A DNA stretch of 64,000 bases from a virus: positions 1,400 to 65,399 of IMG/VR virus record IMGVR_UViG_2858635475_000003; one strand, 5' to 3'. A program made the translations under genes and the position numbers. The notes below the pieces were generated by a model, which made no database searches, was not told the DNA's origin, and worked only from the letters and a program-made list of their open reading frames with translations. Positions 59-60,271 of the stretch are shown in pieces (the first letter of the stretch is position 1; every line of letters starts with the position of its first letter).

Positions 59-814
59 TCATCGTTTTGCTTTGCTGGACTGGACTACGCCTTCGATATT
101 GGTGAAGTCCACGATCTCCGGAATCTCTTTGTTCCCGATGATAAGCCGATCCGCCGCAAATTCGCAATCGATTTCGGTGTACTCGCCGCGAACCTTACCT
201 TCATCGTTCATGATCGTTTCTGGCACGTTGAAGAAGCGGTAAACAGTAGGTGCGTCCGTTGGTATGACGATGATCGCGGCACCGACCGACAATGGCAGCG
301 AAACTCTAAAGGCGCCAGATGCAACACCGGGGCGAGCAGCCACGGTCTTTCTCCTGCCCTTCACGATCGTGTCCAGGTCGATCCCGACCCCTGCCTCATC
401 AGGAAAAGCGACGGACCCACCGGCCAGTTGGATTTGCGCAGCCACCATGTTGGCGGCCCCGCTTGCGAGAATGTTGCGCGACTTCTTTTCGCTGACTGTG
501 ATGTTGGGCGTCGAGCCGATCGCAAGCCACGCTTCGTCAACACCGAGAGCACGGGCCACGAGAGACATCATCTTGGGTTTTGGCTTGGCCTCGCCGGCAA
601 ACCACTTACGCACCGCTTCTCTGCTAACGGGTTCATTGAATTGCGCTTCGAGTTGGTTCTTCAGCCAAATTTGTCGACCGTGGGCGGCCGGCGCCTGCGG
701 TGAGTTTTCGCAGGCGATTCCGAGCCGTTTGGCAAAATCTTTGTGCCGGATCACCGCCTGAGATTGGGAGGAATTTGTCTTACCAGTGATGACTATCATT
801 CGCTGCGACCTCAT
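59..814 (-). CDS. HTH (XRE-family) transcriptional regulator, candidate phage repressor
   Basis: N-terminal helix-turn-helix segment (VSREAVRKWFAGE..MSLVARALGVDEAWL) typical of XRE/CI-like repressors. C-terminal domain unassigned. First gene of the minus-strand early operon, with a dyad motif just upstream (817-833). Confidence 0.5.
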   Translation of the reverse strand: MRSQRMIVITGKTNSSQSQAVIRHKDFAKRLGIACENSPQAPAAHGRQIWLKNQLEAQFNEPVSREAVRKWFAGEAKPKPKMMSLVARALGVDEAWLAIGSTPNITVSEKKSRNILASGAANMVAAQIQLAGGSVAFPDEAGVGIDLDTIVKGRRKTVAARPGVASGAFRVSLPLSVGAAIIVIPTDAPTVYRFFNVPETIMNDEGKVRGEYTEIDCEFAADRLIIGNKEIPEIVDFTNIEGVVQSSKAKR

Positions 815-10290: not shown

Positions 10291-12747
10291 ATGCTCCATG
10301 AAATTGAACCATTTGCGCGAGCAGGTTTTGCGATCCACTGGCTGCACCCGAAATCCAAGCGGCCGATCGGCAACGATTGGGCTTCGAAGCCAGTAAAGAC
10401 GCTGGACCAACTGCGCAGCAGCTACGAGGCCGGCGTATCCGGTAAAAACGTTGGCGTGAGACTCGGCAAGTGGTCGAAGGTCGGTTCCGATTTCCTGCTC
10501 GTCATCGATGTCGACATCCGCAAGCCGGAACTGGCGAAAGAAGCCTTTGCAGAACTAAAGCGCCTGTTTCCGGAATACGCGACGTATCCATCCGTGATCT
10601 CGGGATCGGGCGGCGCGAGCCGGCATTTCTACATCCTGACATCTCGTGAGTTCCCGTCGAAGCAGTTGGCTCACTCTGCACACCAATCCCTCGTTTGGGA
10701 TGAGAAGCAGCAGAAGGACGTGAAAAAGTGGGATTGGGAGATCGAGCTTTTCGGCACCGGCAAACAGGTTGCCATGCCGCCATCGATCCACCCGATCACC
10801 GGCAAACCCTATGTTTGGGAGCGCCCGTTCGACCTGGACGACCTCGATCTTGGCTTGGGTCCGTTCGTTGATTCGGATTACGTTGCCTCGCTAATCGACT
10901 ATGACGAGGAACGCGAGAACGCACCGGTCAATCCTGATGCCATTGAACCGCTCGGACTGACACCGGATCAGGTGCGCGAGATGTTGTCGAAGATCCCGAA
11001 TGAGGATTTCGACTACGAGGAATGGCTGAACGTCATGGCCTCTGTCCAGCATGAAGCGCAGGGACACCCTCTCTCGATCCGCAAGCAATTCTACGAGGTG
11101 TTTCGCGAGTGGTCAGCGAAATCATCCAAGCACGACGACGAGACGACCAAGGCCAAATACAAGAGCTTCAAGAACAGCCCGAACCGCAGGCAGCGCACGA
11201 TGCGCTCCATTCAGGCGCAGGTCCGCGAGATCGAGCTTGACGAGCAAATGGACGACCTCGGCGATGAGATTGATGATCTCGGGCCCGAGGAAGATGAGGA
11301 CGACGACGGCGAATTCGATGACGTGCTCGGCGGCGACCCCGACAAGCCGTCGAAACGAGAAATCAGACTGCGCAAGGCCGAGGTCGAGCACGCCTTCGGC
11401 ATTGTCCCGAAGCGCATCCAGCGCCTGAACGCAAAGCACGCCGTCACGTTTTTGAGCGGCAAGTGCGTGATTATCACCGAAAATTCTGACGGAACCACCT
11501 CTTACGGCACCCCCGGTGAGCTTCATAATTGGTACGAGAATGATCGCGTGGCGAGTGAGAAGGCCACGCAGCCTGTGTCAAAAGCCTGGATGCAGCATAA
11601 GGGGCGGCGCCAGTACCCGAACGGTGTCGTGTTCTCTCCTGGCAAGGAGCGGGACGGTTACTTCAACCACTGGAAAGGGTTCGATGTGGAGCCCGACCCC
11701 AAGGGTTCATGTCAAATGTGGCTGGACCACCTGCGCGAGATCATCTGTAACGGCAATGAAACGCACTACCGCTATGCGCTCGGCTGGTTCGCCCACATGA
11801 TCCAGAAGCCTTGGGAGAAACCAGGTGTCGCCATGGTGCTCCGCGGCAAAAAGCGGATCGGTAAGGATACGATCGCCGACTACTTCGCCGGCCTGATCAA
11901 GCGGTATCACGTCACGGTAGCAAATCAGGACCAGATGGTCGGCAAGTTCAATGCCCATCAGGAACGGTGCCTGCTTCTCCACGTGCAAGAAGGTTTTTGG
12001 GCCGGTAATAAGCAGGCCGAGGGTTCGCTGAAATACCTGATCACGTCCACCTCGGTGCTGATCGAGCCCAAGAGCGTCAACGCCTTTACGGTCGACAGTT
12101 ACCTGCGCCTTTTCATCTCGTCGAACGAAGATTGGGTGGTGCCAGCCACCGCGGACGAAGGCCGGTATTTTGTTCTCGACGTTTCCGACAAGCGAAAAGA
12201 CGACCACAAGTATTTCGGCGCGATGAAGCGCGAGATGATGAATGGCGGTCTGGAAGCCCTGCTCCACTACCTACAGAATTACGATCTCAGCAAGTTCGAG
12301 GTCCGCAAGGTGCCGGATACCAACGCGCTGGCCGATCAGAAAATCCAAGGCTTGAAGAACCTCGACAAATGGTGGTTCTCGATGCTCGAATCCGGCGAGC
12401 CCGAATTTGAATTCCAGAACATCAAGGGTATCGTTGCCGACTGGAATACGGAATCGATCGTTGTCGACCGAGACGATTTTCGCAATGTCTATTCAGCCTG
12501 GATGCGACACCAGCGTTATGACGGCAGTGAGCTTGTGAAATTCATGATCGGCAAGCGTCTGCGCGAACTGTGCCCGCAGATCGAGGACAGGCGGCGCCGG
12601 GACGGCGCGAAGCAGATTTGGACCTACGTGATTCCGAGCCTGCCGCAGTGCCGAGCGGAGTTCAGTAAATTCATGAATTCCGAGATCAAGTGGGAGACCA
12701 CTGATGTGCCTGAGATTATTCTGGAAGACGATTTCGACGATTTATAA
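10291..12747 (+). CDS. bifunctional primase-polymerase / D5-P4-type helicase
   Basis: PrimPol motifs (LLVIDVDIRKPE; SGSGGASRHFYIL). C-terminal P-loop NTPase (MVLRGKKRIGKDT). Ends EDDFDDL*. Confidence 0.8.
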   Translation: MLHEIEPFARAGFAIHWLHPKSKRPIGNDWASKPVKTLDQLRSSYEAGVSGKNVGVRLGKWSKVGSDFLLVIDVDIRKPELAKEAFAELKRLFPEYATYPSVISGSGGASRHFYILTSREFPSKQLAHSAHQSLVWDEKQQKDVKKWDWEIELFGTGKQVAMPPSIHPITGKPYVWERPFDLDDLDLGLGPFVDSDYVASLIDYDEERENAPVNPDAIEPLGLTPDQVREMLSKIPNEDFDYEEWLNVMASVQHEAQGHPLSIRKQFYEVFREWSAKSSKHDDETTKAKYKSFKNSPNRRQRTMRSIQAQVREIELDEQMDDLGDEIDDLGPEEDEDDDGEFDDVLGGDPDKPSKREIRLRKAEVEHAFGIVPKRIQRLNAKHAVTFLSGKCVIITENSDGTTSYGTPGELHNWYENDRVASEKATQPVSKAWMQHKGRRQYPNGVVFSPGKERDGYFNHWKGFDVEPDPKGSCQMWLDHLREIICNGNETHYRYALGWFAHMIQKPWEKPGVAMVLRGKKRIGKDTIADYFAGLIKRYHVTVANQDQMVGKFNAHQERCLLLHVQEGFWAGNKQAEGSLKYLITSTSVLIEPKSVNAFTVDSYLRLFISSNEDWVVPATADEGRYFVLDVSDKRKDDHKYFGAMKREMMNGGLEALLHYLQNYDLSKFEVRKVPDTNALADQKIQGLKNLDKWWFSMLESGEPEFEFQNIKGIVADWNTESIVVDRDDFRNVYSAWMRHQRYDGSELVKFMIGKRLRELCPQIEDRRRRDGAKQIWTYVIPSLPQCRAEFSKFMNSEIKWETTDVPEIILEDDFDDL

Positions 12748-12812
12748 TCAACTGTTTGTTGATTATGTAAACTGCTTGGGGTATGGTCATCGCAGTCACA
12801 AAGGAGATTGCG

Positions 12813-14219
12813 ATGACAGTTACTGGAAAAGATTTGATTGCGGCGGGCGCCGTGCCTGGAAAGTGGTTTCCGGAAGCTCTGCGTCTGATAAACGAAGAAG
12901 GTCTGACCATTCCGCAAGCGGTCGCGAGATGCGAACCCGCTCCTGCGTTGCCCCTGAGCCCCGCCCATTCGAAACCGATTTACGAAAACATCCGGTCCGA
13001 GAATGAGGCCGAAATGGCGAATGTTCTGGCCGTAAAACGCACTATGCAAGAAGTGATGCGCACGCCGGTCACGATCGCAGGCGCGATTATGCCAGATGCT
13101 TGCCCTGCCGGCCCGCTCGGAACGATTCCTGTCGGAGGCATCGTATCATCGACCGAAATCCATCCCGGTATGCATTCCGCCGACATCTGCTGCTCAATGG
13201 CAATCACTATCTTCGACGCCGCGGCGGATCCGAAAGAGCTTCTCGATGCTGTGAAAGAGGTTACCCACTTCGGACCAGGCGGTCGTCAGTTCGGCAACCA
13301 TGCGCTGAAAGCGGGAGAGTTTCGAGGCATCACTGACAGCGACAACCCCTTTCTTCAGGAGGCGAAAAAGTTGGCCTCGTCACATTTTGCCACACAAGGT
13401 GACGGAAACCATTTTGCCTATGTCGGGCGAATGAAGTCGGACGGTAAGGTTGCATTGGTGACCCACCACGGCTCTCGCGGTCCCGGCGCTATGCTCTACA
13501 AAGCAGGCATGCGGGTGGCCGAAAAGAACACTCGCGAAGTCTCACCTGAGACCCTGAAACAGAACGCCTGGATCAAGTCCGACAGCCGCGACGGCGAGCT
13601 TTATTGGGACGCCTTACAACATATCCGCAGGTGGACCAAAGCCAGCCATTTCCAAATCCATGACGATGCGGCGAAACTGTACCGTATGAACGTCAAGTCG
13701 GCCGGCTTCCGCACTCTGATGATCGAAGATCGATTTTGGAACGAGCACAACTTCGTTTTCAGGAAAAGCGATGGATTTTTCTATCACGCAAAGGGCGCGA
13801 CCCCTGCCTTCCTCAATTGGGCTGATGATGCCGGCGATCGAACCATCATTCCCTTGAACATGGGTGAGCCGATCTTGATTGTGCGCGGGCGCGATGCGCC
13901 CCATTCACTCGGGTTCTCGCCTCACGGCGCCGGCCGAAACTTCTCCCGCACTCAACACAAGCGTCTTATGGAGGGTCGCACCGACGAGGAAATCTTTGCC
14001 GAAGAAACCGCTCACATCGATGCACGCTTCTTCCTGGGCATCACCGATATTTCAGAGTTGCCGAGCGCATACAAAAACGCAGCGGCAGTGCGGGCGCAGA
14101 TCAACGAGTTCGGTCTGGCCGATATCGTTGATGAGGTGATCCCGTATGGCTGCATTATGGCCGGCGACTGGGAGCGGGATGCACCATGGAAGAAATCGCG
14201 GAAAGGCGGTGAAGCATGA
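12813..14219 (+). CDS. rtcB: RtcB-family RNA 3'-phosphate ligase
   Basis: RtcB signature blocks GDGNHF, HHGSRG and HGAGR. ATG at 12813 has an AAGGAG SD; an alternative upstream start at 12783 lies nearer the dyad motif. Confidence 0.85.
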   Translation: MTVTGKDLIAAGAVPGKWFPEALRLINEEGLTIPQAVARCEPAPALPLSPAHSKPIYENIRSENEAEMANVLAVKRTMQEVMRTPVTIAGAIMPDACPAGPLGTIPVGGIVSSTEIHPGMHSADICCSMAITIFDAAADPKELLDAVKEVTHFGPGGRQFGNHALKAGEFRGITDSDNPFLQEAKKLASSHFATQGDGNHFAYVGRMKSDGKVALVTHHGSRGPGAMLYKAGMRVAEKNTREVSPETLKQNAWIKSDSRDGELYWDALQHIRRWTKASHFQIHDDAAKLYRMNVKSAGFRTLMIEDRFWNEHNFVFRKSDGFFYHAKGATPAFLNWADDAGDRTIIPLNMGEPILIVRGRDAPHSLGFSPHGAGRNFSRTQHKRLMEGRTDEEIFAEETAHIDARFFLGITDISELPSAYKNAAAVRAQINEFGLADIVDEVIPYGCIMAGDWERDAPWKKSRKGGEA

Positions 14220-15859: not shown

Positions 15860-17002
15860 TTATTCGCCCGCTGGAACCGCAAGCTTGGCGCCGCCCATAT
15901 CCAGAGCAGGAAGTCCTTGATCCGTTTGCAACATCTTCGCCTTGGAGAGAGCAGTGACGCGGGGTCGAACGATTCTACGATATAGCCAATCTTCGGCTAT
16001 CCCGAAAAGGACACCTCCCGTGAGGCTGACCGTAATCATTATCGTAAATCGTTGAACCTCAGTGAGCGACGAGGTCATTTCTCCGACCAGAAAAATGATC
16101 GGGAAGTGGATTAGATATATCCCATACGACCAGCTACCCATCGAATTAATGTGTTTGGACACACGGTCGATCGGGTTCCTGATATTCGAAGCCGAATAGG
16201 TGATCCCAAGGCACGTGACAAGCAACAAGAATTGCCACAGAAACTGGTGCCGTTGTGCGAGTATGGTTACCACGCCCACCAAGGTCAGGAACACGCTCAG
16301 CGGGCCGTGCCTACCCTGTTTGGCAAGCGCCAGAAGCGCACCGCCGATGAAATACAAACCATAAGGGGACTGCCACACCATGGCCCCGAACAAACCATCA
16401 GGTGGCTCGGGAAAATTCGGGTACACGTAAAGAAGGGTTGCCGCCCACGCAACCATGAGCCAACCGTAAAACTGCCGCGGCATCAACATGATCAACGCGG
16501 TGATGAAGTAGAAATAGACCTCAAAATTCAACGTCCAGTACGGAACGCCGCTCCAACTGGCGTGTGATTTGCCCATCGGAAGCAAAAGAATGGAAGGGTC
16601 GAAAGAAATCTGTTCAGGTCGCACAGTCCCTCCCCCGACCATCATTGCGGTCCCGAGGACAAGAGCCACAAGATAACCGGGGTAAATGCGAGCAAGACGA
16701 AGGGTGATGAATGTGTTGACGCTAGAATGACGGGTCAGACACATAACGTAACCCGATATCACGAAGAAAATTAGCACTCCGACATTGCCAACATTCAGCG
16801 TCAGCCAATATTGATTGACAGGTTCCCACGGTCCATGTGGATTGGCCGGCGACGACCAGGCGAAAAGTGACGCGTGGAAGACAAGAACCAGGAGAGCGGT
16901 GCAAAATCTAAGACCTTGAATGCCGACGAGTTTACCGTCCCCCGCGCTCTTACCGTAATCCCCTATTGCCAAAGTCCCGCCTCCCGAGCCATTTATTAGC
17001 AT
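15860..17002 (-). CDS. acyltransferase family 3 membrane protein (candidate O-antigen/LPS acetyltransferase, lysogenic-conversion moron)
   Basis: Acyltransferase_3 N-terminal signature (GLRFCTALLVLVFHAS) and about 10 predicted TM helices. Oppositely oriented to the flanking phage genes. Confidence 0.75.
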   Translation of the reverse strand: MLINGSGGGTLAIGDYGKSAGDGKLVGIQGLRFCTALLVLVFHASLFAWSSPANPHGPWEPVNQYWLTLNVGNVGVLIFFVISGYVMCLTRHSSVNTFITLRLARIYPGYLVALVLGTAMMVGGGTVRPEQISFDPSILLLPMGKSHASWSGVPYWTLNFEVYFYFITALIMLMPRQFYGWLMVAWAATLLYVYPNFPEPPDGLFGAMVWQSPYGLYFIGGALLALAKQGRHGPLSVFLTLVGVVTILAQRHQFLWQFLLLVTCLGITYSASNIRNPIDRVSKHINSMGSWSYGIYLIHFPIIFLVGEMTSSLTEVQRFTIMITVSLTGGVLFGIAEDWLYRRIVRPRVTALSKAKMLQTDQGLPALDMGGAKLAVPAGE

Positions 17003-17138
17003 TTTGAAATGAAGTGCGCCTGATGATTGCGCCAGTCAAGAGCTTCTAACCTGAAGTGTGTACCTCGGTGATCACGAGGTCAGCAGGTGTTGTGAAGAAG
17101 CCGCAACATCCTTGCTTGCCTCGCAAGGTGCCGACAGT

Positions 17139-17696
17139 CTAAGCCCCAAGCACGTCCTCGAATTGAGCCATAGGGTTGGTGCGGCCATAAACTCTGAAAT
17201 TCACGTTACCGACCTTCCGTTCAAGACCGGTCGGCTGCCACCCGCCTTTTGTGAATGCCCGCTCAATCTTTCGGATTGGGCTCGCGTGCTCCCGCGACAA
17301 TCCGTTTGGGTCGACGCCAAAAAGGTTCTGCAAGACTGCCGCTGCGGTTATGGTGTGGCGCCGCGACTTTAGGAACTCGCGAACAAGCTTCTGATCCACA
17401 TTCCCAATGTCAAGCGGTTCTATGACCGATGCTTGATGGCCGGAAGGATAGTACATCCAATGTTGACGACCATCGATCCGTGCTCTGTCGCCACCCTTAA
17501 GCCATCCGCAATATGTCGACAGCACTATGCTCATTCGGTGCGCAACGTGCACGTCGTATTCGCTTGGGTCGCAACCAAGTGCTTCAACCCAAACCTGCTC
17601 GCAATAAGTTACGTCCTTGTCGCGCAGCCATTCTCGGATCTTATGAACCTGTTCGGATAGCTCCGACGTGTGATTAAGGGTCTTCATTTTTCTCAT
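17139..17696 (-). CDS. hypothetical protein ending QFEDVLGA
   Basis: 185 aa with no recognised domain. C-terminal F-E-D-V-L-G-A joins the recurrent tail-motif family. Lies next to the iteron region. Confidence 0.55.
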   Translation of the reverse strand: MRKMKTLNHTSELSEQVHKIREWLRDKDVTYCEQVWVEALGCDPSEYDVHVAHRMSIVLSTYCGWLKGGDRARIDGRQHWMYYPSGHQASVIEPLDIGNVDQKLVREFLKSRRHTITAAAVLQNLFGVDPNGLSREHASPIRKIERAFTKGGWQPTGLERKVGNVNFRVYGRTNPMAQFEDVLGA

Positions 17697-17784
17697 CTCG
17701 AACCTCTTTCGGTCAGGCAGTGAGATAAGTAAGGCAGAAATCCCGTGAAGTCAACTGTTTGTGGATTTTGGTTTGTTGAAAAGT

Positions 17785-18113
17785 CTCCTTATCTCACTTC
17801 CATGGTATCTTACACGTCCTTATCTCATTTTTTTCTCAGCAAGCTTCTGTAATTATTGAAGTTGTGACATTTTGAGATAGAGGAGATAAGGGAGATAAGG
17901 AGTTTTATTGCTCAGCAGAACAGACCGATTTTTTGCACACTTAGGTAGGTGCCTTTCCACTGGTTGGGTGGAGCATTCTTGTCGCCCTACACGGAAAACT
18001 CCTTATCTCATTTATCTACTCTATCTCAAAATGTCACTTATATAATAAAAACAATATGTTAAAAGAAAAAAAGTGAGATAAGGACGAGATAAGGAGGGGG
18101 TTTTGAGATAAGG
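17785..18113. repeat. AT-rich nested inverted iteron array, (T)GAGATAAGG / CCTTATCTC x >=11, plus 17-bp inverted repeat GTGACATTTTGAGATAG (17864-17880 / 18019-18035)
   Basis: Read directly. Copies point outward-inward symmetrically around a roughly 85-bp GC-richer core (17903-17985). Confidence 0.8.
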
Positions 18114-18293
18114 AGATTTTCGAAATCAGCGATTTTTTCCGAAAAACGGCAGTTTCGTAACGCTTAGAACCCTTCGGGCCAATTTCAGGGCCAAAATTTT
18201 TCCAAAAACTCTCGCAAGCCGGGGCTCGGCGCCCTCCGCACTGCGTTATTTCGATCGAGAGGGACCCGTAGCGCCTTGATAACGCTCATCTTT

Positions 18294-18500
18294 TCAAACG
18301 TAACGGTATGACGACAAGCCCGCGCTAACGCTATGTGAAGCTAACGCAATGAGGCCATCACATGTTACGTTCAGGTCGGTATGACAAGAATTGCATAAAC
18401 CCGTAACATGTGACGGTCTCGGTATGACAAGAAAGGTTTGCTTACCCACGGCGCATAAGTCCACAAACGGTTGACTATCTAACGCTATGACTGTATGAAA
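18294..18500. repeat. palindrome/direct-repeat cluster (CACATGTTACG..CGTAACATGTG inverted repeat; GGTATGACAAG x3; GCTAACGC x3)
   Basis: Read directly. Immediately upstream of the first plus-strand gene of the accessory cluster. Confidence 0.7.
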
Positions 18501-18525
18501 AGGATATGCGAAACGGATTGTCCAT

Positions 18526-19083
18526 ATGAACGGCGTAGGTACCAATCGAGCTATGGCGCTAAAGAAGGGGTTACCCTTCTATACCGGCAAGCAATGCTCT
18601 CAATGCCTGCAGCATAAGAAGCGGACGCACGATAAATGGTGTGCGGTATGCTACGATCTAGGGGACTTGAATTGGCAGTTAGCCCGCGCATGGGACCATG
18701 CCACACGCTCCCATATCAACGCCTTGGCACGCGCTCGATACCAGGCAAAGAAGGCGCATAACCCCGTCTTGTCTCTATATCTCAGAACATTCGAAACAGT
18801 CACCACAGTCACCACAAAGAAAGGAACTACCATGGCAACCGCATGCCCAAACAAAGCCAATGCCAGGAAGGCGGGCCGCAAGACTTACGGCACGGGAATA
18901 GCGTGTGAAGAATGCGACACTGATAGGCGCTATGTGGTGAGCGGCAATTGCGTGGAATGCGCCCGCGTATCAGCCAAGGCTTATCGCAAGACGCCTGCAG
19001 CACAAGAGGCGAACCGTGAACGGCAGGCCCGCTATAGGGCGCGCCAGTTGGCAAAGAAAATAGGTCTCCTTGATGATATTTAA
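18526..19083 (+). CDS. double zinc-ribbon protein (candidate regulator)
   Basis: Two C-x2-C-x12-C-x2-C units (CSQCLQHKKRTHDKWCAVC; CEECDTDRRYVVSGNCVEC) with a basic C-terminus. First gene after the repeat region, preceded by a dyad motif. Confidence 0.5.
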   Translation: MNGVGTNRAMALKKGLPFYTGKQCSQCLQHKKRTHDKWCAVCYDLGDLNWQLARAWDHATRSHINALARARYQAKKAHNPVLSLYLRTFETVTTVTTKKGTTMATACPNKANARKAGRKTYGTGIACEECDTDRRYVVSGNCVECARVSAKAYRKTPAAQEANRERQARYRARQLAKKIGLLDDI

Positions 19084-19163
19084 CCTGCCCCCATAATCAA
19101 CAAACAGTTGACTATTGCGTAACGCTGTGAGATAACAGACTCAACGAAACGGAGACGAGACAA

Positions 19164-19445
19164 ATGGAAACTACCCGTAAGAAAATCGGTCCTTTTTCCT
19201 TCACCTTTCGCGGGAACGTCGCATGGTGGAGTTATCGAAAAAAGCATTTCGGGACTTTGATTAAGGCAAGCGGGCGCGACAATATCTCAACAGTCGACAA
19301 GCTCAAAGCCTTCTTTGATCCAGCATGCCAAATCTATGGCGCAGACGGACTTGAGACGTTTGTACGCTGGAACATGAGCGATATTCCAGGGGCGCTTCAT
19401 TGGGCGGAGCATTACACGCGCTGCCGCTCCTCGGTCATTCGCTAA
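19164..19445 (+). CDS. hypothetical protein
   Basis: ORF with an upstream dyad motif (19093-19116). Confidence 0.4.
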   Translation: METTRKKIGPFSFTFRGNVAWWSYRKKHFGTLIKASGRDNISTVDKLKAFFDPACQIYGADGLETFVRWNMSDIPGALHWAEHYTRCRSSVIR

Positions 19446-19472
19446 AACTCAACCATTTGGGGATATATCACC

Positions 19473-19751
19473 ATGACAACTATCCGCACCATAGACCCCG
19501 CCATTCGGGAACATATCACGGGCACGGCACGCGGGTTTGCCGCTCTTGGATTGCTGGCAGGCGCCGGCTTGGCGGCAATGCTGCCGGTCGTTCTGCCGCT
19601 TGAACGCGATCGCACTTATGACCTTGTACAAGTGTCGCCAGACGGCGAGTCCGATATCGTCGATTATAATTTGAGTGCGACGGATTGCGGTTTTCTGAAA
19701 GAACGCCTGCAGGCTGCCGGTTATGAAATGCTGTGCGAACGCACGCGCTAA
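19473..19751 (+). CDS. hypothetical protein
   Basis: Dyad motif plus GGGGA directly upstream of the ATG. Confidence 0.4.
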   Translation: MTTIRTIDPAIREHITGTARGFAALGLLAGAGLAAMLPVVLPLERDRTYDLVQVSPDGESDIVDYNLSATDCGFLKERLQAAGYEMLCERTR

Positions 19752-19772
19752 CAATCAACCATTTGGGGATTA

Positions 19773-20237
19773 ATGATCATGACGAAACAATCCTTTCCAC
19801 ACTTCGATTCCTTCGTTTGCGACGGCGACACTGTATCGCTTGAAATTGAGGGTTTCACCCTTACAGCCACAATCTACCGTGACGACGATTGCAGCGCGCC
19901 CAATAAGCGGCAAGACGGTTTCTGGCCGTCTCTTGATCCAAGTAATGACGGCTATATTGGCGCAAAGTCCAAATCAACGCTTGCCCGTCATATGGCGCGA
20001 GCCCGCGAAGTTTTGCGGTCATGGTGCGCTGATGAATGGTTTTATGTCGGCGTGGCCGTGACTGTCGAAAAAGACGGCGTGCAACTCACTGGCGACTATG
20101 ACCATGCGCTGTGGGGTATCGAATGCAATTACCCGTTTGGCCGCAATCCTAACCACTATCTGAGTTCAGTTGCGGACGATTATATCGGCGAAGCTCTTGA
20201 CGCGGCACGGGCAAAGATTGCCAAGTTGGCGGCGTAA
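19773..20237 (+). CDS. hypothetical protein
   Basis: Dyad motif plus GGGGA directly upstream; 154 aa. Confidence 0.5.
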   Translation: MIMTKQSFPHFDSFVCDGDTVSLEIEGFTLTATIYRDDDCSAPNKRQDGFWPSLDPSNDGYIGAKSKSTLARHMARAREVLRSWCADEWFYVGVAVTVEKDGVQLTGDYDHALWGIECNYPFGRNPNHYLSSVADDYIGEALDAARAKIAKLAA

Positions 20238-20256
20238 ATTATGGGGATTAACGACT

Positions 20257-20565
20257 ATGGACAAGCATCTCACACGTAATGAAAAGAAGCTCAAGAAATT
20301 GATGGAAGCGGCCCACAATGAGGCGCTTGGAATTTACATTGATGAGGCGCGCCGCGTATTGTGTCGTTGTGCAACACTCTCCCATCTGGTTGCCGCAATG
20401 GGTTCAGCTTTTTGGGTTGATAGAGACGGCGACATAATCCACGAAGAAAGCGACTTACCGGCAATCGCACGGCATTTCATGATGAACATGGAAGACACTT
20501 ATTACAGTTATTTTCGCTCACCTGGAATCAAGATTTATCGCGACCGCATCATAACGGACTGGTGA
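20257..20565 (+). CDS. hypothetical protein
   Basis: ATG at 20257 after a GGGGATTAAC box. Confidence 0.45.
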   Translation: MDKHLTRNEKKLKKLMEAAHNEALGIYIDEARRVLCRCATLSHLVAAMGSAFWVDRDGDIIHEESDLPAIARHFMMNMEDTYYSYFRSPGIKIYRDRIITDW

Positions 20566-20686
20566 GTTGCTCACCTAAAATCGTCACTCAATAATCAACA
20601 AACGGTTGACTAATGCATAACACTGTGAGATAACCGGAACAACGAAACAAGAGCGCGCCGCGCTGCCACACTGAGGAGTCAAGGGA

Positions 20687-21352
20687 ATGAGCAAACACCC
20701 GCTAGAAGCTGCGATTGAGGCCCACGGCATTACCATTAAGGCCGAATTCGTGCCGTTCTCAAAGTCGCGCAATGCCACGCGTGCCGACATAGACGGCAAG
20801 CCTTGGCTTTCGCTCAACTGGAAAGTGACGCTGCAGCGCAACGGGCGCGATATCCTTACAACGGATTACGGCGCGGGAGTCGCACATTGCCCCGGCTATG
20901 CCGCCAAGGTCGCGCCAACGCATTTTCAGGCTCACAGTTACCGCAATGCAAGCGGCAAGCCTTACCCCGGCACGACAAGCATGTATCGCACGGCAACCCC
21001 TGCAGAACGGCTTAATCAGTATCGGGAAGCGATTGCAGCGGCGGAATGTGAGTCGGGTTTCCCTATGGAAATCGATCCATGGGGTCGCGGTCCTGAAAAC
21101 GTCTTCAAGCGCAAAGCAAAGGGTGAACCGATTGAGCCCAAAGTTACGGACGTTGTGCATTCCCTCATCATGGATGCAAGCGTTCTCGATAGCGGCGGCT
21201 TTGAAGATTGGGCGGCTGATTTAGGATATGACACGGACTCGCGCAAAGCAGAGTCCACCTATCGGGAATGCCTAGAAATCGCGTTGAAGCTTCGGGCGGG
21301 GTTGGGCGAGGCCATCCTGTCTGAATTGCGGGAAGCCGCGCAAGATTATTGA
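20687..21352 (+). CDS. hypothetical protein
   Basis: 221 aa; dyad motif at 20591-20614. Confidence 0.5.
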   Translation: MSKHPLEAAIEAHGITIKAEFVPFSKSRNATRADIDGKPWLSLNWKVTLQRNGRDILTTDYGAGVAHCPGYAAKVAPTHFQAHSYRNASGKPYPGTTSMYRTATPAERLNQYREAIAAAECESGFPMEIDPWGRGPENVFKRKAKGEPIEPKVTDVVHSLIMDASVLDSGGFEDWAADLGYDTDSRKAESTYRECLEIALKLRAGLGEAILSELREAAQDY

Positions 21353-24894: not shown

Positions 24895-25026
24895 CACGGC
24901 TCGGAAAACTCAAACGCCCCGTGCCGGCGAAAACCGAAACGAGGCGTTCTGAGGGGTCATGGTGATAGGAGGCGGGGACCTGCCTTCCGAGACACGAGCA
25001 ACATACCAGAAACCGGATCGAGCGCA

Positions 25027-25077
25027 ACAACTGTTTGTGGATTTTCGCATTGACTTTATCAACAAAATGTTGATTAT
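25027..25077 (+). promoter_or_regulatory. tandem pair of dyad motifs (CAACtgtttGTGGATttt ; ATCAACaaaatGTTGATtat) upstream of the BRCT gene
   Basis: Representative of the motif family found at more than 30 gene starts. Confidence 0.5.
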
Positions 25078-25114
25078 CGGATTAAAGATTGAACGCGAGC
25101 CCGAGGAGTCGGCG

Positions 25115-26467
25115 ATGAGTGAGTTGGGAATTTACGAGGGGTGTTACGTCCATCTCCGGAAGGGTGACGTGGTCGGGCCCCTTACGAAGGATGAAAACGC
25201 AGACCCTCTATACCAGTGGAGGGGCCCAAACGGTTTGTCCTGGTCGTCATCCGGCAAAGTTCTGCTTTCGGAATACGAGTTCCCGAATGACATCGTCCGC
25301 GTGATGCCGAAAGACGCAATCAAGTTGACGATGTCCAAGACATACGGCGACTTCTCCAAGCTCGGCGACTTCTCCAAGCTCGGCCAAGCCACCATCCCGC
25401 CCCACGTCACCAAGGCCGCAATGGACGCCGGCATCAAGGCCGACCCTGCCTACGAGCATTTCGTGAATGCGATACTGACGGCTGGCTTCAAGGCGCAGTA
25501 TGAGATCGAGTTCGTGCCGGTGGGTGAGATTATAGAACTCGCAAAGAACCTCATTGACGCCATTGATATGGAGCCGAGAGAGGCGTGGGGTTGCCGCAAC
25601 GTCGAGAGACCGAAATGGGAACGTCAAGTTTACGGGCCTGCGATCCGTGCGCTGAAATCGGCGTTTGAAAAAATTCCCAAAAACGAATCTGAAAAAAGGA
25701 TTCCGGATTCCGAAAAACCCAAAGGGGGTCTGAGCGGTCTACCACTCGAAGGCGTGACCATCTGCTTCACCGGCAGCATGAACATGCCCGTCGATACGCA
25801 CAAAGGGATTGCGGAAGCTCTCGGTGCCAAGGTTTCCGGCAGCGTCCATTCGAACACCACGCTGGTCGTCTTCGGAGCGGGCGCTCAATCGAAGCTCGAC
25901 AAGGCTATTGCGCATGATCTTCCCCGGATGAGCGAGAAAGCCTGGTTGTGGCTCGCCGGTCTGCTCGGATACGGCAAGCCGGAACATGTGAGCCCATACG
26001 GGAAGATCGGCGCACCCATTTCCAGGGCCGGCGAGAAGGTGCTTTTCGAAGTCCTGAAGCAGCGGTCGCGGGCAGATATCCCATCGGTGCAGACGATCGA
26101 CGAAGCTATCAGAGCAGCAGTTCGGGAATGGCGTGATAATAACCCCGTGGCCGTGATTCCACCGTCCCATTACATCGCCAAGAAGGTCCATGCGGCGATG
26201 GCGTGTGCATCCGGCGAGGATGTCGTCCATCTCGTGGCGCCGGAAGGTTGGTATCTCCACGAGTGCAAGCACGAGCACACCCCGCACCGGTTTGCAGGAC
26301 AGACGGTGGCCCCCTCAGACCATCCCGGTGGCGCGTGGTCCGTCGATTTCCAGCGCATTCAAAATGGTGGGATGCTAACTGGTGGCCGTGGAAAGACTCT
26401 TGTCGAAGCCTGGCAGAACGCGGTGGCGGCAATCAAACTCGCTGAAGAACACGGGCTTGACATTTAA
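25115..26467 (+). CDS. BRCT domain-containing protein with GDFSKL tandem repeat
   Basis: BRCT-like block GVTICFTGSMNMP...LVVFGAGAQSKLDKA. An 18-bp exact tandem duplication (25346-25381) encodes GDFSKLGDFSKLG. Confidence 0.6.
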   Translation: MSELGIYEGCYVHLRKGDVVGPLTKDENADPLYQWRGPNGLSWSSSGKVLLSEYEFPNDIVRVMPKDAIKLTMSKTYGDFSKLGDFSKLGQATIPPHVTKAAMDAGIKADPAYEHFVNAILTAGFKAQYEIEFVPVGEIIELAKNLIDAIDMEPREAWGCRNVERPKWERQVYGPAIRALKSAFEKIPKNESEKRIPDSEKPKGGLSGLPLEGVTICFTGSMNMPVDTHKGIAEALGAKVSGSVHSNTTLVVFGAGAQSKLDKAIAHDLPRMSEKAWLWLAGLLGYGKPEHVSPYGKIGAPISRAGEKVLFEVLKQRSRADIPSVQTIDEAIRAAVREWRDNNPVAVIPPSHYIAKKVHAAMACASGEDVVHLVAPEGWYLHECKHEHTPHRFAGQTVAPSDHPGGAWSVDFQRIQNGGMLTGGRGKTLVEAWQNAVAAIKLAEEHGLDI

Positions 26468-28466: not shown

Positions 28467-28519
28467 CTTGACAATATCCACAAATAGTTGATTATCGAAA
28501 TCGAAGGTAAGGAAGAAAC

Positions 28520-50285: not shown

Positions 50286-53200
50286 TCAACCTAACAAGCT
50301 TCTAAGTTTTCCCTTGTTGCGACCGAGCACACCCATGATGACCTTTTCACCGGAGGCACTGTCCATCCAATTGGAGGCACTGGCTTCATCGAGAACGACA
50401 ATGTTCCTGATAGCACTCGGGCCGCTATTGGACGAACCACGCTCTGCGGCAGCCATCCGCTCCGTCAGAGCGCTCTCCTGCGCTTCCGTCCGGATCGTCT
50501 CCCCACGTTCGAGAATGGTCGGCACCTCGTTAGACTTCAGACCTGCAACGCCGCCGCTGTGATAATAGGACGCGACACTGAAGACGCCGGGGTCAACCCT
50601 GCGAGAGCGCGTGGTCGAGCCAATGGTCCCGCCACCGTGGGCAACCGCTCCACCGAGCGCCGACGCCGCCTTCCCGATTGGTCCGCCGAACCCTGCCAGT
50701 GCGTTGAGGATCGTCTGTTTCAAGATCATCATGGCGATCTCGCGCAGGAAGTTTGCAGCGAATTGCAGGAACGCTTTACCGAGAGCCTGAAACGCATTCT
50801 CACCGTTGGCAACCGCTTGGGCAAACGAGTCAAATACGCCAACCAGTCCGTCCACAAACGAGCCGACAAGCTGCTGTGTTTGCTGCGAGGTGAGACCAAG
50901 CGTATTGATTGCTCGCCCTACGTTCGAAATCGTGACCGCCGCAGTCTGAGTCTTCGTGATCAGCGCATCGATGACAGGCAACTTCGCAGCCGCTTCCGGC
51001 CCGCCGATCGCCTCCCACATGGCGCGAGCATTCTCGGCTGCTGTGACGATCTGGCTGTTCAGCCCGAGGATCTGCTGTTGAAGCGTTTCGGTTTGACTGG
51101 TATCGCCGCTCTGCACAGCCTGCTTGTACTGCTGCATGAGGGCATTACGCTGCTGCTCAAGAGCCTGTGCCTGTTGAAGTGCGGTGTTGGCTTCCTGAAT
51201 TGACGCCTTCTGGTCACGCTTTTCCTGGCTGATCTTGTATTCTTCTGTCGCCAGAGCCTTAATCTTCGCGATCTGTTCATCTGTGAGGACGACACCAGCT
51301 TCCTTGGCCTTCTTCTGTTCCTCGGCCAGTTTTTTCTGGACGAACGCTTCCTCGGTCAGCCGGCCGGCATTACCGTTCTCGGCCTCCTGCAATGTCAGGC
51401 GCTGCGCGAGCTCGTCATTGTATTCCTTCTGCGTCTGTAACCGTTTCCGCTCAGTCTCGAACTGCTTCTCGGTGAAATCGCCTCCGCCCTGGAAAAGCGT
51501 GGCTTCCTGGTTGCGACGACTGGTGTTGATACCACCGTTATGGGACGCGAGGCTACGGATGGCTTCGGCGATCTGCTCGACAGTGCCCTGCTGGATCGTC
51601 TCAAGGATGCCCGTGCTTTTCAGATCACCGTAGTTGTATGCGATCGATGTCAGGACACCCTGCTGCTGTGGCGAGAAGGCATCAAAGCGAGTTGCGCCGA
51701 CCTGATCGCGGGCAATCTTGCCAAACTCGTCCACGCGGCGCGTCAGATCGCGCACAGCGTCAGAGATAGGGACAGTCATCCCCTGAACGACTTTCTGGAT
51801 CGATCCGTCCGACAGGGTGACGGTGTCCGAACCATAGCCGGCACGATAAGCGTTCACATCCCAATACGGGGTGGAACGGTAGCCCTCGAACTGCTTGATG
51901 ATGTTGAAAGCCGCCGAGCCGCCGTCGCTACCAAGGTTGCCGAAATTGACGGCAGTCATGCCAGCCTGATAGCGTTCCTGCGCCTTCACGAGGTCATCGA
52001 ACGAACGGGCGAACTTGATCGCCTGATTGTACTGTTCTTCGAGCCCCTTGATCGTTTCCAGCTTTTTCAGTTCTTCGGCGACAGACGGAATGAGCTTCCC
52101 CATCTCATCCATCGCTTCGTTGAACTTTTTCGCTTTTTCCTCGGCCAGCTTGGTCGAGTCACCGTAGTTGTCTGTTGCCGCCTTTGTCCCGATAAGCGCC
52201 TTGTCCGCTTCCGTGGCAGTGCCGCTGAATGCCTTCACGACCGCGTCGGCCTGCTGCATGGCGTCATATAGTTCGAGCAGGCTCTTGGCCGTGCCGTCAC
52301 CAGTGTTTACGAGGTTGAGCAGTTCGAGCGCAATTTCCTTAAACTGCTCATCGGCAGGATTAAGCGCTATGTCGTTCAGCACCTTCTCCAAATCGCGCAG
52401 CGTCTTGGTGCCATCACGAACACCATTGATCGCTTCCTCGATCTGGCGAAACTGCTTGATCTGCGGCGAGTTGGACGGCAGATCGGCGTTGCCCGCATAG
52501 AGCACACGAGACAACCGCTCGGCGTCCTTGAGGCTCGACTGGAATGTGCTGCGCAGCTTTTCCGCACTCGACAATGCTTGCGCGAGCGTGGCGCCCTTGA
52601 TGTTGTCAGCAACCTTCTTCGTGGTGCCTTCGATTGAGTCGTATGCCGTCTGAACGGCCTGCAGGATTCGTTCGTGCTCGCTGACAGCGGTAACCGTCTT
52701 GTCGACTTCCGTTGCCCACGAACTCACAGCCAGTGTCACACCGGTCAGGATGATGCCGGGAAGGCCACCGACCGCCGACCAAAGCAGGCGGAAAGCGCCG
52801 GCCGCGATTCCTGCCAGTCTCGTGAGCCCGCCAACAGCAACCTGCAATGCGAGAAAGCGTGAACCGGCAGTGCCGCCGACGACGGTTGCCACCCGCAACT
52901 GCGCATTCATCGCCGCGATGATACCGGTGCCACGGGTCAGCGATCCAGTCAGCGCATTCCATTTCGCCTGGGTGGCGGTGACAGTGCCAGCCCACGTGAA
53001 CATTTCACGGTTCAGCGTTCCGGTGGCAACCGCGTTAGCCTTGATGGCGGAAAGCCAGTTGCCAAGGCTGCCTGCCACCTTCAGCGCAACCAGCACGCCG
53101 GCAATACGGGCGAAGTCGTCCATGTATGGCAGCAGCGCCACAAGACCGCGTGTGACATTACCGAGTGCCGCGCCGAGCGACAGGAAGAACTCACGGCCTT

Positions 53201-59095: not shown

Positions 59096-59141
59096 TTCTC
59101 TGTTCCTTATCAGGGGTTAACTTATCCACAAACAGTTGACA

Positions 59142-59165
59142 TTGGCGGTATGACGTTACCGCCAA
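59142..59165 (-). terminator. perfect 9-bp stem hairpin TTGGCGGTA-tgacg-TACCGCCAA immediately downstream of the major capsid gene
   Basis: Read directly. The stem contains GGTATGAC, which also recurs in the 18300-18440 repeats. Confidence 0.4.
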
Positions 59166-59176
59166 TGTCAGTTCGG

Positions 59177-60271
59177 TTACGCCAGAACGCGAGCCTTGAG
59201 GGTGCGGTTCGGGTAGAGCGGGATCGGCAGCGGCGAAGACTGCGAGAGAACGAACTTCTCGCCGGGATCGTCGGTCTCGAACATCTTCTGGAAGATGTCG
59301 CTGTTCTGCAGGCCGGCTTCGATCGCCTTGGTGTCGTAGATCGCACCGTAGCAACGGACGCCGGTTGCGCCGGGAGCAATGAGCATGATGTCCTTTTCGT
59401 TGAAAAGGTCGATCTTGGTCTTGCCACCGGAACCGTTCGGGATATCGACCGTATCCTTGTACATCCAGACTTCGATGTTGTTCGAAAGCTGGCCGATACG
59501 GGTCATCGGCTGTTCGCGGATCTGGATGCCGCGATCGAAGGTCACGCTCTCGCCGCCACGGTAGCGGGTATCGAGCATATCCTTGATGCCGGCGTTGTTG
59601 CGGAAATAAGGGGCAACCTGTGCACCAACCAGCAGAATGGTCGGAGCGCCGCCGCGCAGAGCGCGAACCATGGTGTTCGCCCAAGCTTCCACATCGCCGA
59701 TGATGTCGGTGGCGGGATCGGACCAGAAGTCGTCGGTCTTCACGATCGTCTGACCGGGGTCGCGGCCGAAGTCGAGAAGGACGGACGGATTGGCGGCGCC
59801 CTGATCACGGTCGTAATCGACCTGAACCTTCGCGTCGATGAAGGCACGTGCCGCCATCCAGATTTCGCGAACGCGGATGGCACGCAGATGCCGTTCGACG
59901 ATCTCGGCCACGCGCATGTCGAAACGCTGTGCCAGTGTGGGACGCTGGCCGCCGTTGCGGAAAATTTCGGACGGCTTCAGGTTGCGCGCATCTTCCGGAC
60001 GAACGGCATTTTTCAGCTTGATGTACGGAGGTGCGAACGCACTGATCGATTCGCCGTGACGAATGTCGAGCGGCTTGCCCTGCTCGTAAGGCAGGACGAA
60101 CATCGCCATGAAGCGGTCGGCTTCAGGCAGATCGGCGAAGCGGATTTCGTCGTCTTCGGAGTAGAAGGTCTCACCGAAGTACGTGTCGAGAATCCACGAC
60201 GGCAACGCGTCCATGCGCGGGTCATTCCGCAGCATGAACAGATCGTTGGGGGTCCACAATTCAATAGCCAT
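59177..60271 (-). CDS. major capsid protein (lambda gpE family)
   Basis: Size (364 aa), position after the decoration and protease genes, and overall Phage_cap_E-like sequence. Confidence 0.75.
   Translation of the reverse strand: MAIELWTPNDLFMLRNDPRMDALPSWILDTYFGETFYSEDDEIRFADLPEADRFMAMFVLPYEQGKPLDIRHGESISAFAPPYIKLKNAVRPEDARNLKPSEIFRNGGQRPTLAQRFDMRVAEIVERHLRAIRVREIWMAARAFIDAKVQVDYDRDQGAANPSVLLDFGRDPGQTIVKTDDFWSDPATDIIGDVEAWANTMVRALRGGAPTILLVGAQVAPYFRNNAGIKDMLDTRYRGGESVTFDRGIQIREQPMTRIGQLSNNIEVWMYKDTVDIPNGSGGKTKIDLFNEKDIMLIAPGATGVRCYGAIYDTKAIEAGLQNSDIFQKMFETDDPGEKFVLSQSSPLPIPLYPNRTLKARVLA

What the first reader, a model, noticed from the sequence alone, without database searches (positions are those of the whole stretch)
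18294..18500. Second repeat cluster: 11-bp perfect inverted repeat CACATGTTACG / CGTAACATGTG, GGTATGACAAG x3 and GCTAACGC x3, upstream of the double-zinc-ribbon gene
Several distinct operator-like elements are packed into 200 bp at the head of the 22-kb plus-strand accessory operon. GGTATGAC also forms the stem of the hairpin downstream of the major capsid gene (59142-59165). A single factor may therefore bind both loci, for example a late-gene or antitermination regulator. The adjacent gene 18526..19083 encodes a double C-x2-C-x12-C-x2-C protein with a basic tail, a plausible candidate.
Basis: seen in the sequence. Interest (0 to 1): 0.55.

Follow-up and report, generated by a model that had tools for sequence, protein, structure and literature searches.

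The report
Binding-site array between cos and early promoter
The repeats are real, conserved protein-binding sites filling the fixed 300-bp gap between this rhizobial phage's cohesive-end (cos) site and its first early promoter, but the proposed link to the capsid-gene hairpin does not hold and the binding protein is unproven.

Summary
The repeats are real and non-random, with corrected counts: the inverted repeat is 12 nt perfect, GGTATGACAAG occurs twice exactly, and GCTAACGC occurs twice exactly.

They are not several distinct elements. The GCTAACGC repeats and both inverted-repeat arms are copies of one TAACG-core site. TAACG[CG] occurs 7 times in 350 bp against about 0.1 expected. The GGTATGAC repeat is a separate pair of identical 15-mers 43 bp apart.

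The cluster starts about 45 bp right of the probable cos cleavage site (about 18215-18250). Two related deposited phage genomes, RHph_X2_30 and RcPutin, have their ends there.

In nine relatives the cos-to-ATG distance is 299-301 bp. TAACG cores are kept at fixed positions while flanks diverge. One more copy lies left of cos, and one sits in the -35/-10 spacer of each of promoters P1-P3.

The 15-mer pair changes in concert. Its type tracks the N-terminal domain of the adjacent two-domain zinc-ribbon protein.

The inverted repeat shows no covariation, so it is not a hairpin. The capsid-hairpin link is unsupported.

Best reading: an operator array for the early promoters, possibly autoregulated by the zinc-ribbon protein. 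Main rival: a cosB-like terminase site.

The parts
18156..18170 (+). TAACG-core site (CGTAACGCTTAGAAC) on the left side of cos, 69 bp before the CGGCGCCC anchor at 18227
   Evidence: The copy is present in window, L001 and L005 at -69/-70. In RHph_X2_30 it is flipped, at -53, together with all other copies. In the alignment it is displaced in L138 and not evident in L140.
18195..18275 (.). Conserved cos block. The probable cleavage site (cosN) lies at about 18215-18250.
   Evidence: The record ends of RHph_X2_30 and the read-determined ends of RcPutin (PMC8601537) align here. The block is conserved in all relatives.
18278..18292 (+). TAACG-core site GATAACGCTCATCTT
18299..18313 (+). TAACG-core site CGTAACGGTATGACG.
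   Evidence: The TAAC core is kept in most relatives.
18324..18338 (+). TAACG-core site GCTAACGCTATGTGA (offset +99)
   Evidence: Same offset in window and L001. The core is kept in 8 of the 9 aligned sequences (all but L005).
18340..18354 (+). TAACG-core site GCTAACGCAATGAGG (offset +115)
   Evidence: TAACGC is invariant in the 9-sequence alignment A4. The offset is the same in window and L001.
18356..18370 (-).
   Evidence: GTTAC is invariant, and the flanking arm positions are not kept.
18376..18390 (+). Direct repeat copy 1, TCGGTATGACAAGAA (type A lineage-specific site)
   Evidence: Unique in the window. It changes in concert with copy 2 across relatives.
18401..18415 (+). TAACG-core site CCGTAACATGTGACG; this is right arm of the inverted repeat (offset +177)
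   Evidence: GTAAC is invariant in 9 sequences.
18419..18433 (+). Direct repeat copy 2, TCGGTATGACAAGAA, 43 bp after copy 1
18460..18474 (.). Palindromic operator TCCACAAACGGTTGA overlapping the -35 of P1
   Evidence: It is one of 20 sites of TC[AC]AC-N5-GTTGA in the window, against 0.24 expected.
18471..18499 (+). Inferred promoter P1: TTGACT, 17 nt, TATGAA. A TAACG-core site (TCTAACGCTATGACT, 18478-18492) lies in the spacer.
   Evidence: Conserved in all relatives. The promoter is inferred from sequence and no start site has been mapped. The consensus scan did not flag it because the -10 lacks a final T.
18526..19083 (+). Two-domain zinc-ribbon protein with a basic tail; candidate binder
   Evidence: It has no Pfam, NCBIfam or PDB family. 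Only PHROGs of unknown function match.
19097..19136 (+). P2: palindrome, TTGACT, then spacer site GCGTAACGCTGTGA and GATAAC
   Evidence: The 18-bp module RTAACRCTGTGAGATAAC occurs only at P2 and P3 in the window. It is conserved in all relatives.
20595..20634 (+). P3: same module (ATAACACTGTGAGATAAC)

Best explanation
The cluster is a non-coding array of protein-binding sites. It fills a length-constrained gap of about 300 bp between the phage's cohesive-end site and the start codon of the first gene of the rightward early operon.

It has three layers:
1. A short TAACG-core site. Seven copies lie to the right of cos, including both arms of the inverted repeat and one in the P1 spacer. One more lies to the left of cos, and one sits in the -35/-10 spacer of each of P2 and P3.
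2. A pair of identical 15-mers about four helical turns apart. This pair is specific to each lineage.
3. Promoter P1, which carries the genome-wide palindromic operator.

Most likely mechanism (inferred, not shown): a sequence-specific DNA-binding protein made early occupies the spacer sites and the upstream array. This sets, and probably represses, transcription from P1-P3. The best candidate is the two-domain zinc-ribbon protein encoded immediately downstream. Its conserved C-terminal domain would read the TAACG sites and its variable N-terminal domain would read the 15-mer pair.

Shown here: the sites are real, selected, fixed in position and shared between the array and the promoter spacers. 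Inferred: who binds them, and the sign of the regulation.
For: - Enrichment: TAACG[CG] occurs 7 times in 350 bp, the densest spot in the window. The direct and inverted repeats exceed shuffled controls.
- Footprint: in nine relatives the cos-to-ATG distance is 299-301 bp. TAAC/GTAAC cores are kept in all or nearly all sequences while the flanks diverge.
- Same binder at array and promoters: every relative has a copy in the P1, P2 and P3 spacers.
- The site is not an RNA-polymerase element: in RHph_X2_30 the 11-mer GTAACGCTGTG is inverted in the array, in the copy left of cos and in both promoter spacers, and those promoters have their own good -10 hexamers.
- The 15-mer pair is unique in each genome and both copies change together. 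Type A is CGGTATGAC. Type B is TTGCGCACGC. L005 has TGTGCGCAGAAA.
- Its type follows the N-terminal domain of the zinc-ribbon protein. Identity is 58-96% within type A and 44-84% within type B, but 29-43% between types. The C-terminal domain does not follow that split (window to P0005 77%, window to P0003 65%).
- L007 is a more distant relative with the same layout. It has a different array motif (TGAATAAGGGA), also with a copy in its first promoter's spacer, and a different first gene.
Against: - No binding data exist.
- The 15-mer pair and the N-terminal domain are about 100 bp apart (the whole module spans about 400 bp), so their co-variation could be plain linkage.
- RHph_X2_30 has a 39-bp triple repeat at the same place but no N-terminal-type zinc-ribbon domain. 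Its zinc-ribbon ORF is the third gene.
- The zinc-ribbon protein matches no known DNA-binding family. Its model is of modest confidence (mean pLDDT 66) and has no Foldseek match in the PDB.
- The array lies 45-200 bp from cos, with a copy on the other side of cos. That layout is what a terminase recognition site looks like.
- Rhodobacter RcD phages have repeats on this side of cos with no outward promoter.
- P1-P3 are inferred from consensus only.
Confidence: 0.45

Rival explanations
1. The array is a cosB-like packaging site. The TAACG array, and perhaps the 15-mer pair, would be the recognition site for the small terminase subunit. It would position the terminase to nick cosN about 50-200 bp away. 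The promoter-spacer copies would be secondary, for example shutting off early promoters late in infection.
For: - cos maps to about 18215-18250 from the ends of RHph_X2_30 and RcPutin.
- Sites lie at +53 to +177 and at -69 from the cos anchor, with no length change across relatives. From my own knowledge, this is the same scale as the lambda R sites.
- L008 has 8 tandem 16-bp TGTAACGCTTAGATAC units right of cos.
- RcD phages carry repeats on the same side of cos without a promoter (PMC8601537).
Against: - Copies sit in the P2 and P3 spacers, 0.9 and 2.4 kb from cos, in every relative.
- All copies are inverted relative to cos in RHph_X2_30. That is hard to square with a polar packaging signal.
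- The strongly conserved cos block itself (18127-18275) could supply the terminase contacts.
- In RcPutin the cos-proximal repeat block is duplicated 1.46 kb inward.
- The small terminase gene is not in the window, so co-variation could not be tested.
Confidence: 0.27
2. The inverted repeat forms a functional hairpin, acting as an RNA terminator or attenuator, or as a DNA cruciform.
For: The window sequence folds well: -33.4 kcal/mol, z = -4.0.
Against: - Across 9 relatives only the innermost GTTAC(G)/(C)GTAAC pairs are kept.
- The covariation score is 0.099 against 0.088 in shuffles, reached by 121 of 500 shuffles.
- The loop is 32 nt and there is no T run.
- There is no upstream plus-strand gene to terminate.
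Confidence: 0.03
3. The cluster is an auxiliary part of the replication origin and belongs with the GAGATAAGG iterons at 17700-18120.
For: It lies next to an iteron cluster whose type co-varies with the last 100 residues of the primase-polymerase.
Against: - The two clusters assort independently. The window and L135 share the second cluster almost base for base. Yet their iterons differ (GAGATAAGG against GTCGGAAC), and their primase C-terminal regions are only 35% identical.
- cos separates the two clusters.
Confidence: 0.07
4. The spacer sites are loading sites for a promoter-bound antiterminator, working like lambda Q at its binding element. The zinc-ribbon protein would bind DNA between -35 and -10 and ride with RNA polymerase through the 22-kb operon.
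For: - The sites lie between -35 and -10 of P1-P3.
- The candidate is a zinc-binding small protein.
- A conserved AACGAAAC follows P2 and P3.
Against: - The protein has no match to any Pfam family, which would include the Q families.
- Terminator-like sites in the operon are fewer than expected, 14 against 22, with only one convincing plus-strand terminator.
- The conserved AACGAAAC overlaps the ribosome-binding region.
Confidence: 0.06

Closest known systems
Lambda cosB (R1-R3 sites for the small terminase gpNu1) and the P1 pac hexamer repeats
   Same: Several short repeated sites lie within about 200 bp of the terminase cut site, some inverted. In P1 they lie on both sides of the cut. (From my own knowledge of these systems.)
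   Different: - Copies also lie inside promoter spacers 0.9 and 2.4 kb away.
- All copies are inverted in one relative.
- The terminase genes are about 20 kb away, judged from RHph_X2_30.
- Binding by terminase is untested.
Repeat-array operators that double as cis sites: ParR on parC of plasmid R1, and the omega repressor heptad arrays of pSM19035
   Same: Arrays of short repeats in direct and inverted orientation flank or overlap a promoter. They are bound by the product of the adjacent operon, which autoregulates. (From my own knowledge.)
   Different: - The sites here are spaced 16-40 bp apart, not contiguous.
- No partition genes are present.
- The candidate binder is a zinc-ribbon protein, not a ribbon-helix-helix protein.
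Small phage zinc-finger transcription factors: P2 Ogr / P4 Delta and lambda Q
   Same: These are small Cys4 zinc proteins encoded by the phage. Lambda Q binds DNA between -35 and -10. (From my own knowledge.)
   Different: - There is no sequence or fold match.
- Ogr sites lie near -55, not in the spacer.
- There is no evidence here for late-gene activation or antitermination.
Origin iterons bound by the C-terminal domain of the phage P4 alpha primase-helicase
   Same: The neighbouring first cluster (17700-18120) behaves this way: iteron type co-varies with the primase C-terminus.
   Different: This applies to the first cluster, not to the finding. The second cluster assorts independently.

Membership tests
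Lambda-type cosB (small terminase binding sites) | Lies within about 200 bp of the cos nick site | tested here: met
   cos was placed at about 18215-18250 by aligning the ends of RHph_X2_30 and RcPutin. The sites lie at +53 to +177. The cos position itself is inferred by homology.
Lambda-type cosB (small terminase binding sites) | Sites confined to the cos region | tested here: not met
   Copies lie in the P2 and P3 spacers at +893 and about +2390, in all relatives.
Lambda-type cosB (small terminase binding sites) | Bound by the small terminase subunit, with specificity co-varying with its DNA-binding domain | not testable with these tools
   The small terminase gene lies outside the window. 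No contig carrying a type-A pair also reaches that gene.
Immunity operators of a CI-type repressor | Sites also present at the repressor gene's own promoter | tested here: not met
   There is no TAACGC near 814-909. That region carries TCAAC-N5-GTTGA-type palindromes instead.
Intrinsic terminator or structured RNA | Stem kept by compensatory changes, followed by a T run | tested here: not met
   Covariation is at shuffle level. There is no T run, no Rfam match above chance level (two hits at E 0.44 and 0.91, both outside the cluster), and the region was not flagged as terminator-like.
Origin iterons | Repeat type co-varies with the initiator protein | tested here: not met
   The window and L135 share this cluster, but their primase C-terminal regions are 35% identical and their iterons differ.
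Lambda Q binding element | Binding site between -35 and -10 of the regulated promoter | tested here: met
   P1-P3 spacer copies. The promoters are inferred, not mapped.
Lambda Q binding element | Partner protein is a member of a Q antiterminator family | tested here: not met
   No Pfam match, no NCBIfam match, no PDB match by sequence and no PDB match by fold.
attP arm-type sites | Adjacent to the integrase gene and the core crossover site | tested here: not met
   In RHph_X2_30 the integrase is at 51238-52443 and the array is at 1-560. No integrase gene lies near 18 kb in the window.

The most novel reading that the evidence does not exclude
One early two-domain zinc-ribbon protein reads two site classes. 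The first is the conserved TAACG sites that bracket the cos cut site and sit in the spacers of P1-P3. The second is a lineage-specific 15-mer pair.

In this way it would couple the genome ends to early transcription. For example, it could bridge or protect the two cos ends after injection while throttling the first promoters. Alternatively, it could hand the same nucleoprotein complex to terminase late in infection.

The fixed 299-301 bp between cos and the ATG would reflect the geometry of that complex.
Probability: 0.12. Interest if true: 0.7.

Novelty: new variant of a known kind. Interest (0 to 1): 0.45.

Why it matters
The phage belongs to a poorly studied group of temperate rhizobial phages in the family Casjensviridae. 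In this group cos lies about 20 kb from the terminase genes, and neither the regulatory DNA nor the zinc-ribbon protein has a described function.

The comparative data give a precise and cheap set of experiments:
- a 300-bp fragment;
- two natural types of the 15-mer pair;
- a protein whose two domains can be tested separately.

If the array serves both early transcription and cos recognition, it would be an unusual coupling of two steps that are separate in lambda. If it is only an operator array or only a cosB, it is an ordinary new example of a known kind.

Tried and rejected
- Nucleotide searches with 17000-20000 against deposited phages and plasmids found nothing. The 181-bp cos block alone gave only chance hits.
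- tblastn of the zinc-ribbon protein against deposited phages found nothing.
- Two scans of genome contigs found no prophage copy.
- A GC-rich cos pattern scan of viral contigs returned 120 loci, none of them new relatives. A more specific pattern recovered only known relatives, plus one metagenome contig identical to L001.
- There is no Rfam match above chance level in 17000-21000, and no tRNA anywhere in the window.
- Coding on the minus strand is rejected, because the ORF is not kept in relatives.
- The hairpin reading of the inverted repeat is rejected.
- The capsid-hairpin link is rejected.
- The antitermination lead is weakened.
- The zinc-ribbon protein has no Pfam, NCBIfam or PDB sequence match. 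Its AlphaFold model has mean pLDDT 66 and no Foldseek match in the PDB.
- The first genes of L007 and RHph_X2_30 have no family match.
- L006 is a different context, a prophage end with a recombinase, and was not used.
- Testing co-variation of the 15-mer pair with the small terminase was not possible. That gene lies outside the window and outside the type-A contigs.
- Literature searches for RHph_X2_30, and for Casjensviridae together with 'cohesive ends', found nothing.

Full report
**Context**

The window is most of a temperate siphophage genome.
- It encodes an HTH_3 repressor (59..814), a helicase, a family-A DNA polymerase, a Gp2.5-like single-strand binding protein, an exonuclease, a primase-polymerase (10291..12747) and RtcB.
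- It also encodes a long rightward block of small genes and a leftward structural module.
- The closest deposited genome is Rhizobium phage RHph_X2_30 (Casjensviridae, host Sinorhizobium americanum; polymerase 80% identical). Next are the Rhodobacter capsulatus RcD phages at 46%.
- The finding lies in an 830-bp non-coding stretch between gene 17139..17696 (minus strand) and the zinc-ribbon gene 18526..19083.

**The observation**

The elements exist, but the counts need correcting.
- The inverted repeat is 12 nt perfect and extends to 19 nt at 89%.
- GGTATGACAAG is exact twice, inside a perfect 15-mer TCGGTATGACAAGAA at 18376 and 18419. The third copy shares only GGTATGAC.
- GCTAACGC is exact twice. 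The third copy is TCTAACGC.
- Shuffles never give a 15-nt direct repeat, and give a 12-nt inverted repeat in 3 of 2000 trials.
- TAACG[CG] is 7 of its 26 window-wide occurrences within 18150-18500, the densest spot in 64 kb.

**What the relatives show**

I recovered the homologous region from these sources:
- two IMG/VR contigs (L001/L004 and L005);
- RHph_X2_30;
- eight contigs carrying homologues of the zinc-ribbon protein (L135-L145);
- more distant relatives L007, L008 and RcPutin.

Four results follow.

*1. The region borders cos.*
- A block at 18127-18275 is conserved in every relative.
- The deposited ends of RHph_X2_30 fall inside it...AAAACTCTCGCG | CGGCGCCCCC....
- So do the ends of RcPutin.
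- For the RcD phages the ends were determined from read pile-ups as 12-base 5' overhangs. Their small terminase is gene 23, far from the ends, and repeats were noted at the right end (PMC8601537).
- Two independent records ending within about 20 bp of each other in this block make it the cos site. I place cosN at about 18215-18250.
- The finding therefore starts about 45 bp to the right of cos.

*2. One site family, not several.*
- Measured from the CGGCGCCC anchor (18227), TAAC cores sit at -69, +53, +74, +99, +115, +136 (inverted), +177 and +253 (in the P1 spacer).
- Another sits at +893, in the P2 spacer.
- In L001, six of these copies (+99, +115, +136, +177, +253 and the one left of cos at -69/-70) are at the same offsets. 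Offsets in L005 are nearly the same.
The two arms of the inverted repeat are the +136 and +177 sites.
- In the nine-sequence alignment the TAAC/GTAAC cores are kept in all or nearly all sequences while the flanks are largely randomised.
- The distance from cos to the ATG is 299-301 bp in all nine.
- CGTWACG is itself palindromic, so one central base change flips a site. At the +136 column L005 has GTAACG where the others have GTTACG.
- The extended stem shows no covariation: score 0.099 against 0.088 in shuffles, reached by 121 of 500. It is not a conserved hairpin, although it folds well in this one sequence.

*3. The array and the promoter spacers share a binder.*
- P1, P2 and P3 of every relative read: palindrome, TTGACT, a TAACG site, then a weak -10.
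- At P2 and P3 there is an 18-bp module, RTAACRCTGTGAGATAAC, found nowhere else in the window.
- In RHph_X2_30 the same 11-mer GTAACGCTGTG is inverted everywhere at once. This covers 11 array copies, the copy left of cos and both promoter spacers. Those promoters have their own TATGCT and TATAGT hexamers.
- The 11-mer is therefore a protein site lying between -35 and -10, not a polymerase element.
- L008 (primase 55% identical) has 8 tandem 16-bp TGTAACGCTTAGATAC units right of cos. Its two zinc-ribbon domains are separate genes.
- L007 (primase 45%) keeps the layout but has a different motif, TGAATAAGGGA. That motif is again present in the first promoter's spacer, and the first gene is different.

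*4. The 15-mer pair is a separate, fast-evolving element.*
- It is unique in each genome, 39-45 bp apart, and both copies change together:

| Type | Sequence | Found in |
|---|---|---|
| A | CGGTATGAC + AAGAA or GGGAAA | window, L135, L136/L137, L138 |
| B | GGGTTGCGCACGC or ACTTTGCGCACGC | L001/L139, L140, L143, L145 |
| other | TGTGCGCAGAAA | L005 |
| other | 39-bp unit, three copies | RHph_X2_30 |

- The type follows the N-terminal zinc-ribbon domain. Identity is 58-96% within A and 44-84% within B, but 29-43% between types.
- The C-terminal domain does not follow the split (window to P0005 77%, window to P0003 65%).
- The iteron type to the left of cos assorts independently of both.

**Interpretation**

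The data establish a selected, geometry-constrained array of binding sites with at least two specificities. It is tied both to cos and to the first three early promoters.

I favour an operator array for P1-P3, occupied by an early protein. The adjacent zinc-ribbon protein is the best candidate for four reasons:
- the spacer copies are universal;
- the wholesale inversion in RHph_X2_30 argues against a polar packaging signal;
- L007 changes its motif together with its first gene;
- the 15-mer type tracks the N-terminal domain.

The main rival is a cosB-like terminase site. It is favoured by the position, by the copy on the far side of cos, and by the RcD repeats that lie beside cos without a promoter. 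The two readings are not exclusive.

Neither reading can be settled without binding data. The zinc-ribbon protein has no recognisable family or solved-fold match. Co-variation over about 250 bp could also be simple linkage.

**The capsid hairpin**

The capsid gene is 59177..60271 on the minus strand.
- The hairpin at 59138-59169 lies just downstream of it and is terminator-like.
- Only GGTA of the 8-mer GGTATGAC is in the stem.
- The 15-mer has no match there within 3 mismatches.
- RHph_X2_30 has a hairpin of unrelated sequence at the same place.
- GGTATGAC occurs 3 times outside the cluster, against 0.77 expected for the whole window.

A shared factor is therefore not supported.

**Verdict**

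This is a real and conserved regulatory or packaging array. It is a new variant of known kinds of phage cis-acting site clusters. Interest is moderate.

Noticed in passing
window 18195-18275: This is the probable cos site, with the cut at about 18215-18250. It lies about 20 kb from where the terminase genes should be, as in the Rhodobacter RcD phages. The ends of RHph_X2_30 and RcPutin both map here. The RHph_X2_30 junction lacks about 10 nt (AGCCGGGGCT) that the relatives have.
   Followed up: yes
window 17700-18120 and 12450-12747: The GAGATAAGG iteron cluster co-varies with the last ~100 residues of the primase-polymerase. Identity there is 93% to L004, which has the same iterons. It is only 35-38% to L005, L135 and RHph_X2_30, which have different iterons, although the first 700 residues of L005 are 86% identical. 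This looks like an origin read by the primase C-terminal domain, as in phage P4.
   Followed up: partly
window, 20 sites: 3210, 3922, 6465, 9759, 12748, 17751, 18460, 19097, 20595, 22062, 25059, 28477, 31008, 34374, 36084, 39511, 50268, 55533, 59125, 60784: The 15-bp palindrome TC[AC]AC-N5-GTTGA gives 30 strand matches against 0.24 expected. The sites I examined lie between genes, overlapping the -35 or lying in the spacer of promoter-like sites. Degenerate copies lie upstream of the repressor gene at 815-900. It is probably the immunity operator.
   Followed up: partly
window 17930-17995: The centre of the iteron cluster holds a segment conserved in window, L001, RHph_X2_30, L005, L008 and RcPutin (CCAC..GGTGGG ... 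ACACGGAAAACTCC), including a small hairpin. It could be the replication start or priming site.
   Followed up: no
window 59121-59129 and 28476-28484; L001 5915-5925: The left half of some palindrome copies reads (T)TATCCACA, a near-consensus DnaA box. The two copies flanking the origin/cos region (17751 and 18460) are both of the TCCAC type.
   Followed up: no
L002 (RHph_X2_30) 1262-1525 and 159-758: An unannotated single zinc-ribbon ORF, homologous to the C-terminal domain, lies just before P2. The annotated CDS 159..758 overlaps the TAACG repeat array and the 39-bp triple repeat, so its 5' part is probably not coding.
   Followed up: partly
L011 (RcPutin) 10930-11110 and 12386-12575: The repeat block beside the RcPutin cos site (CATGGC[AG]GGGCAG and others) is duplicated 1.46 kb inward, in an intergenic gap.
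   Followed up: no
window 59138-59169: A strong hairpin (-26.9 kcal/mol, z = -4.6) lies 8 nt after the capsid gene stop on the minus strand, followed by a palindrome copy. It is terminator-like. RHph_X2_30 has a hairpin of different sequence at the same position.
   Followed up: yes
window 12783-14219, 15860-17002, 24959-26467: The phage carries an RtcB RNA ligase, an O-antigen-type acyltransferase (absent from the L001 relative at this position) and a protein with a ligase-like domain.
   Followed up: no
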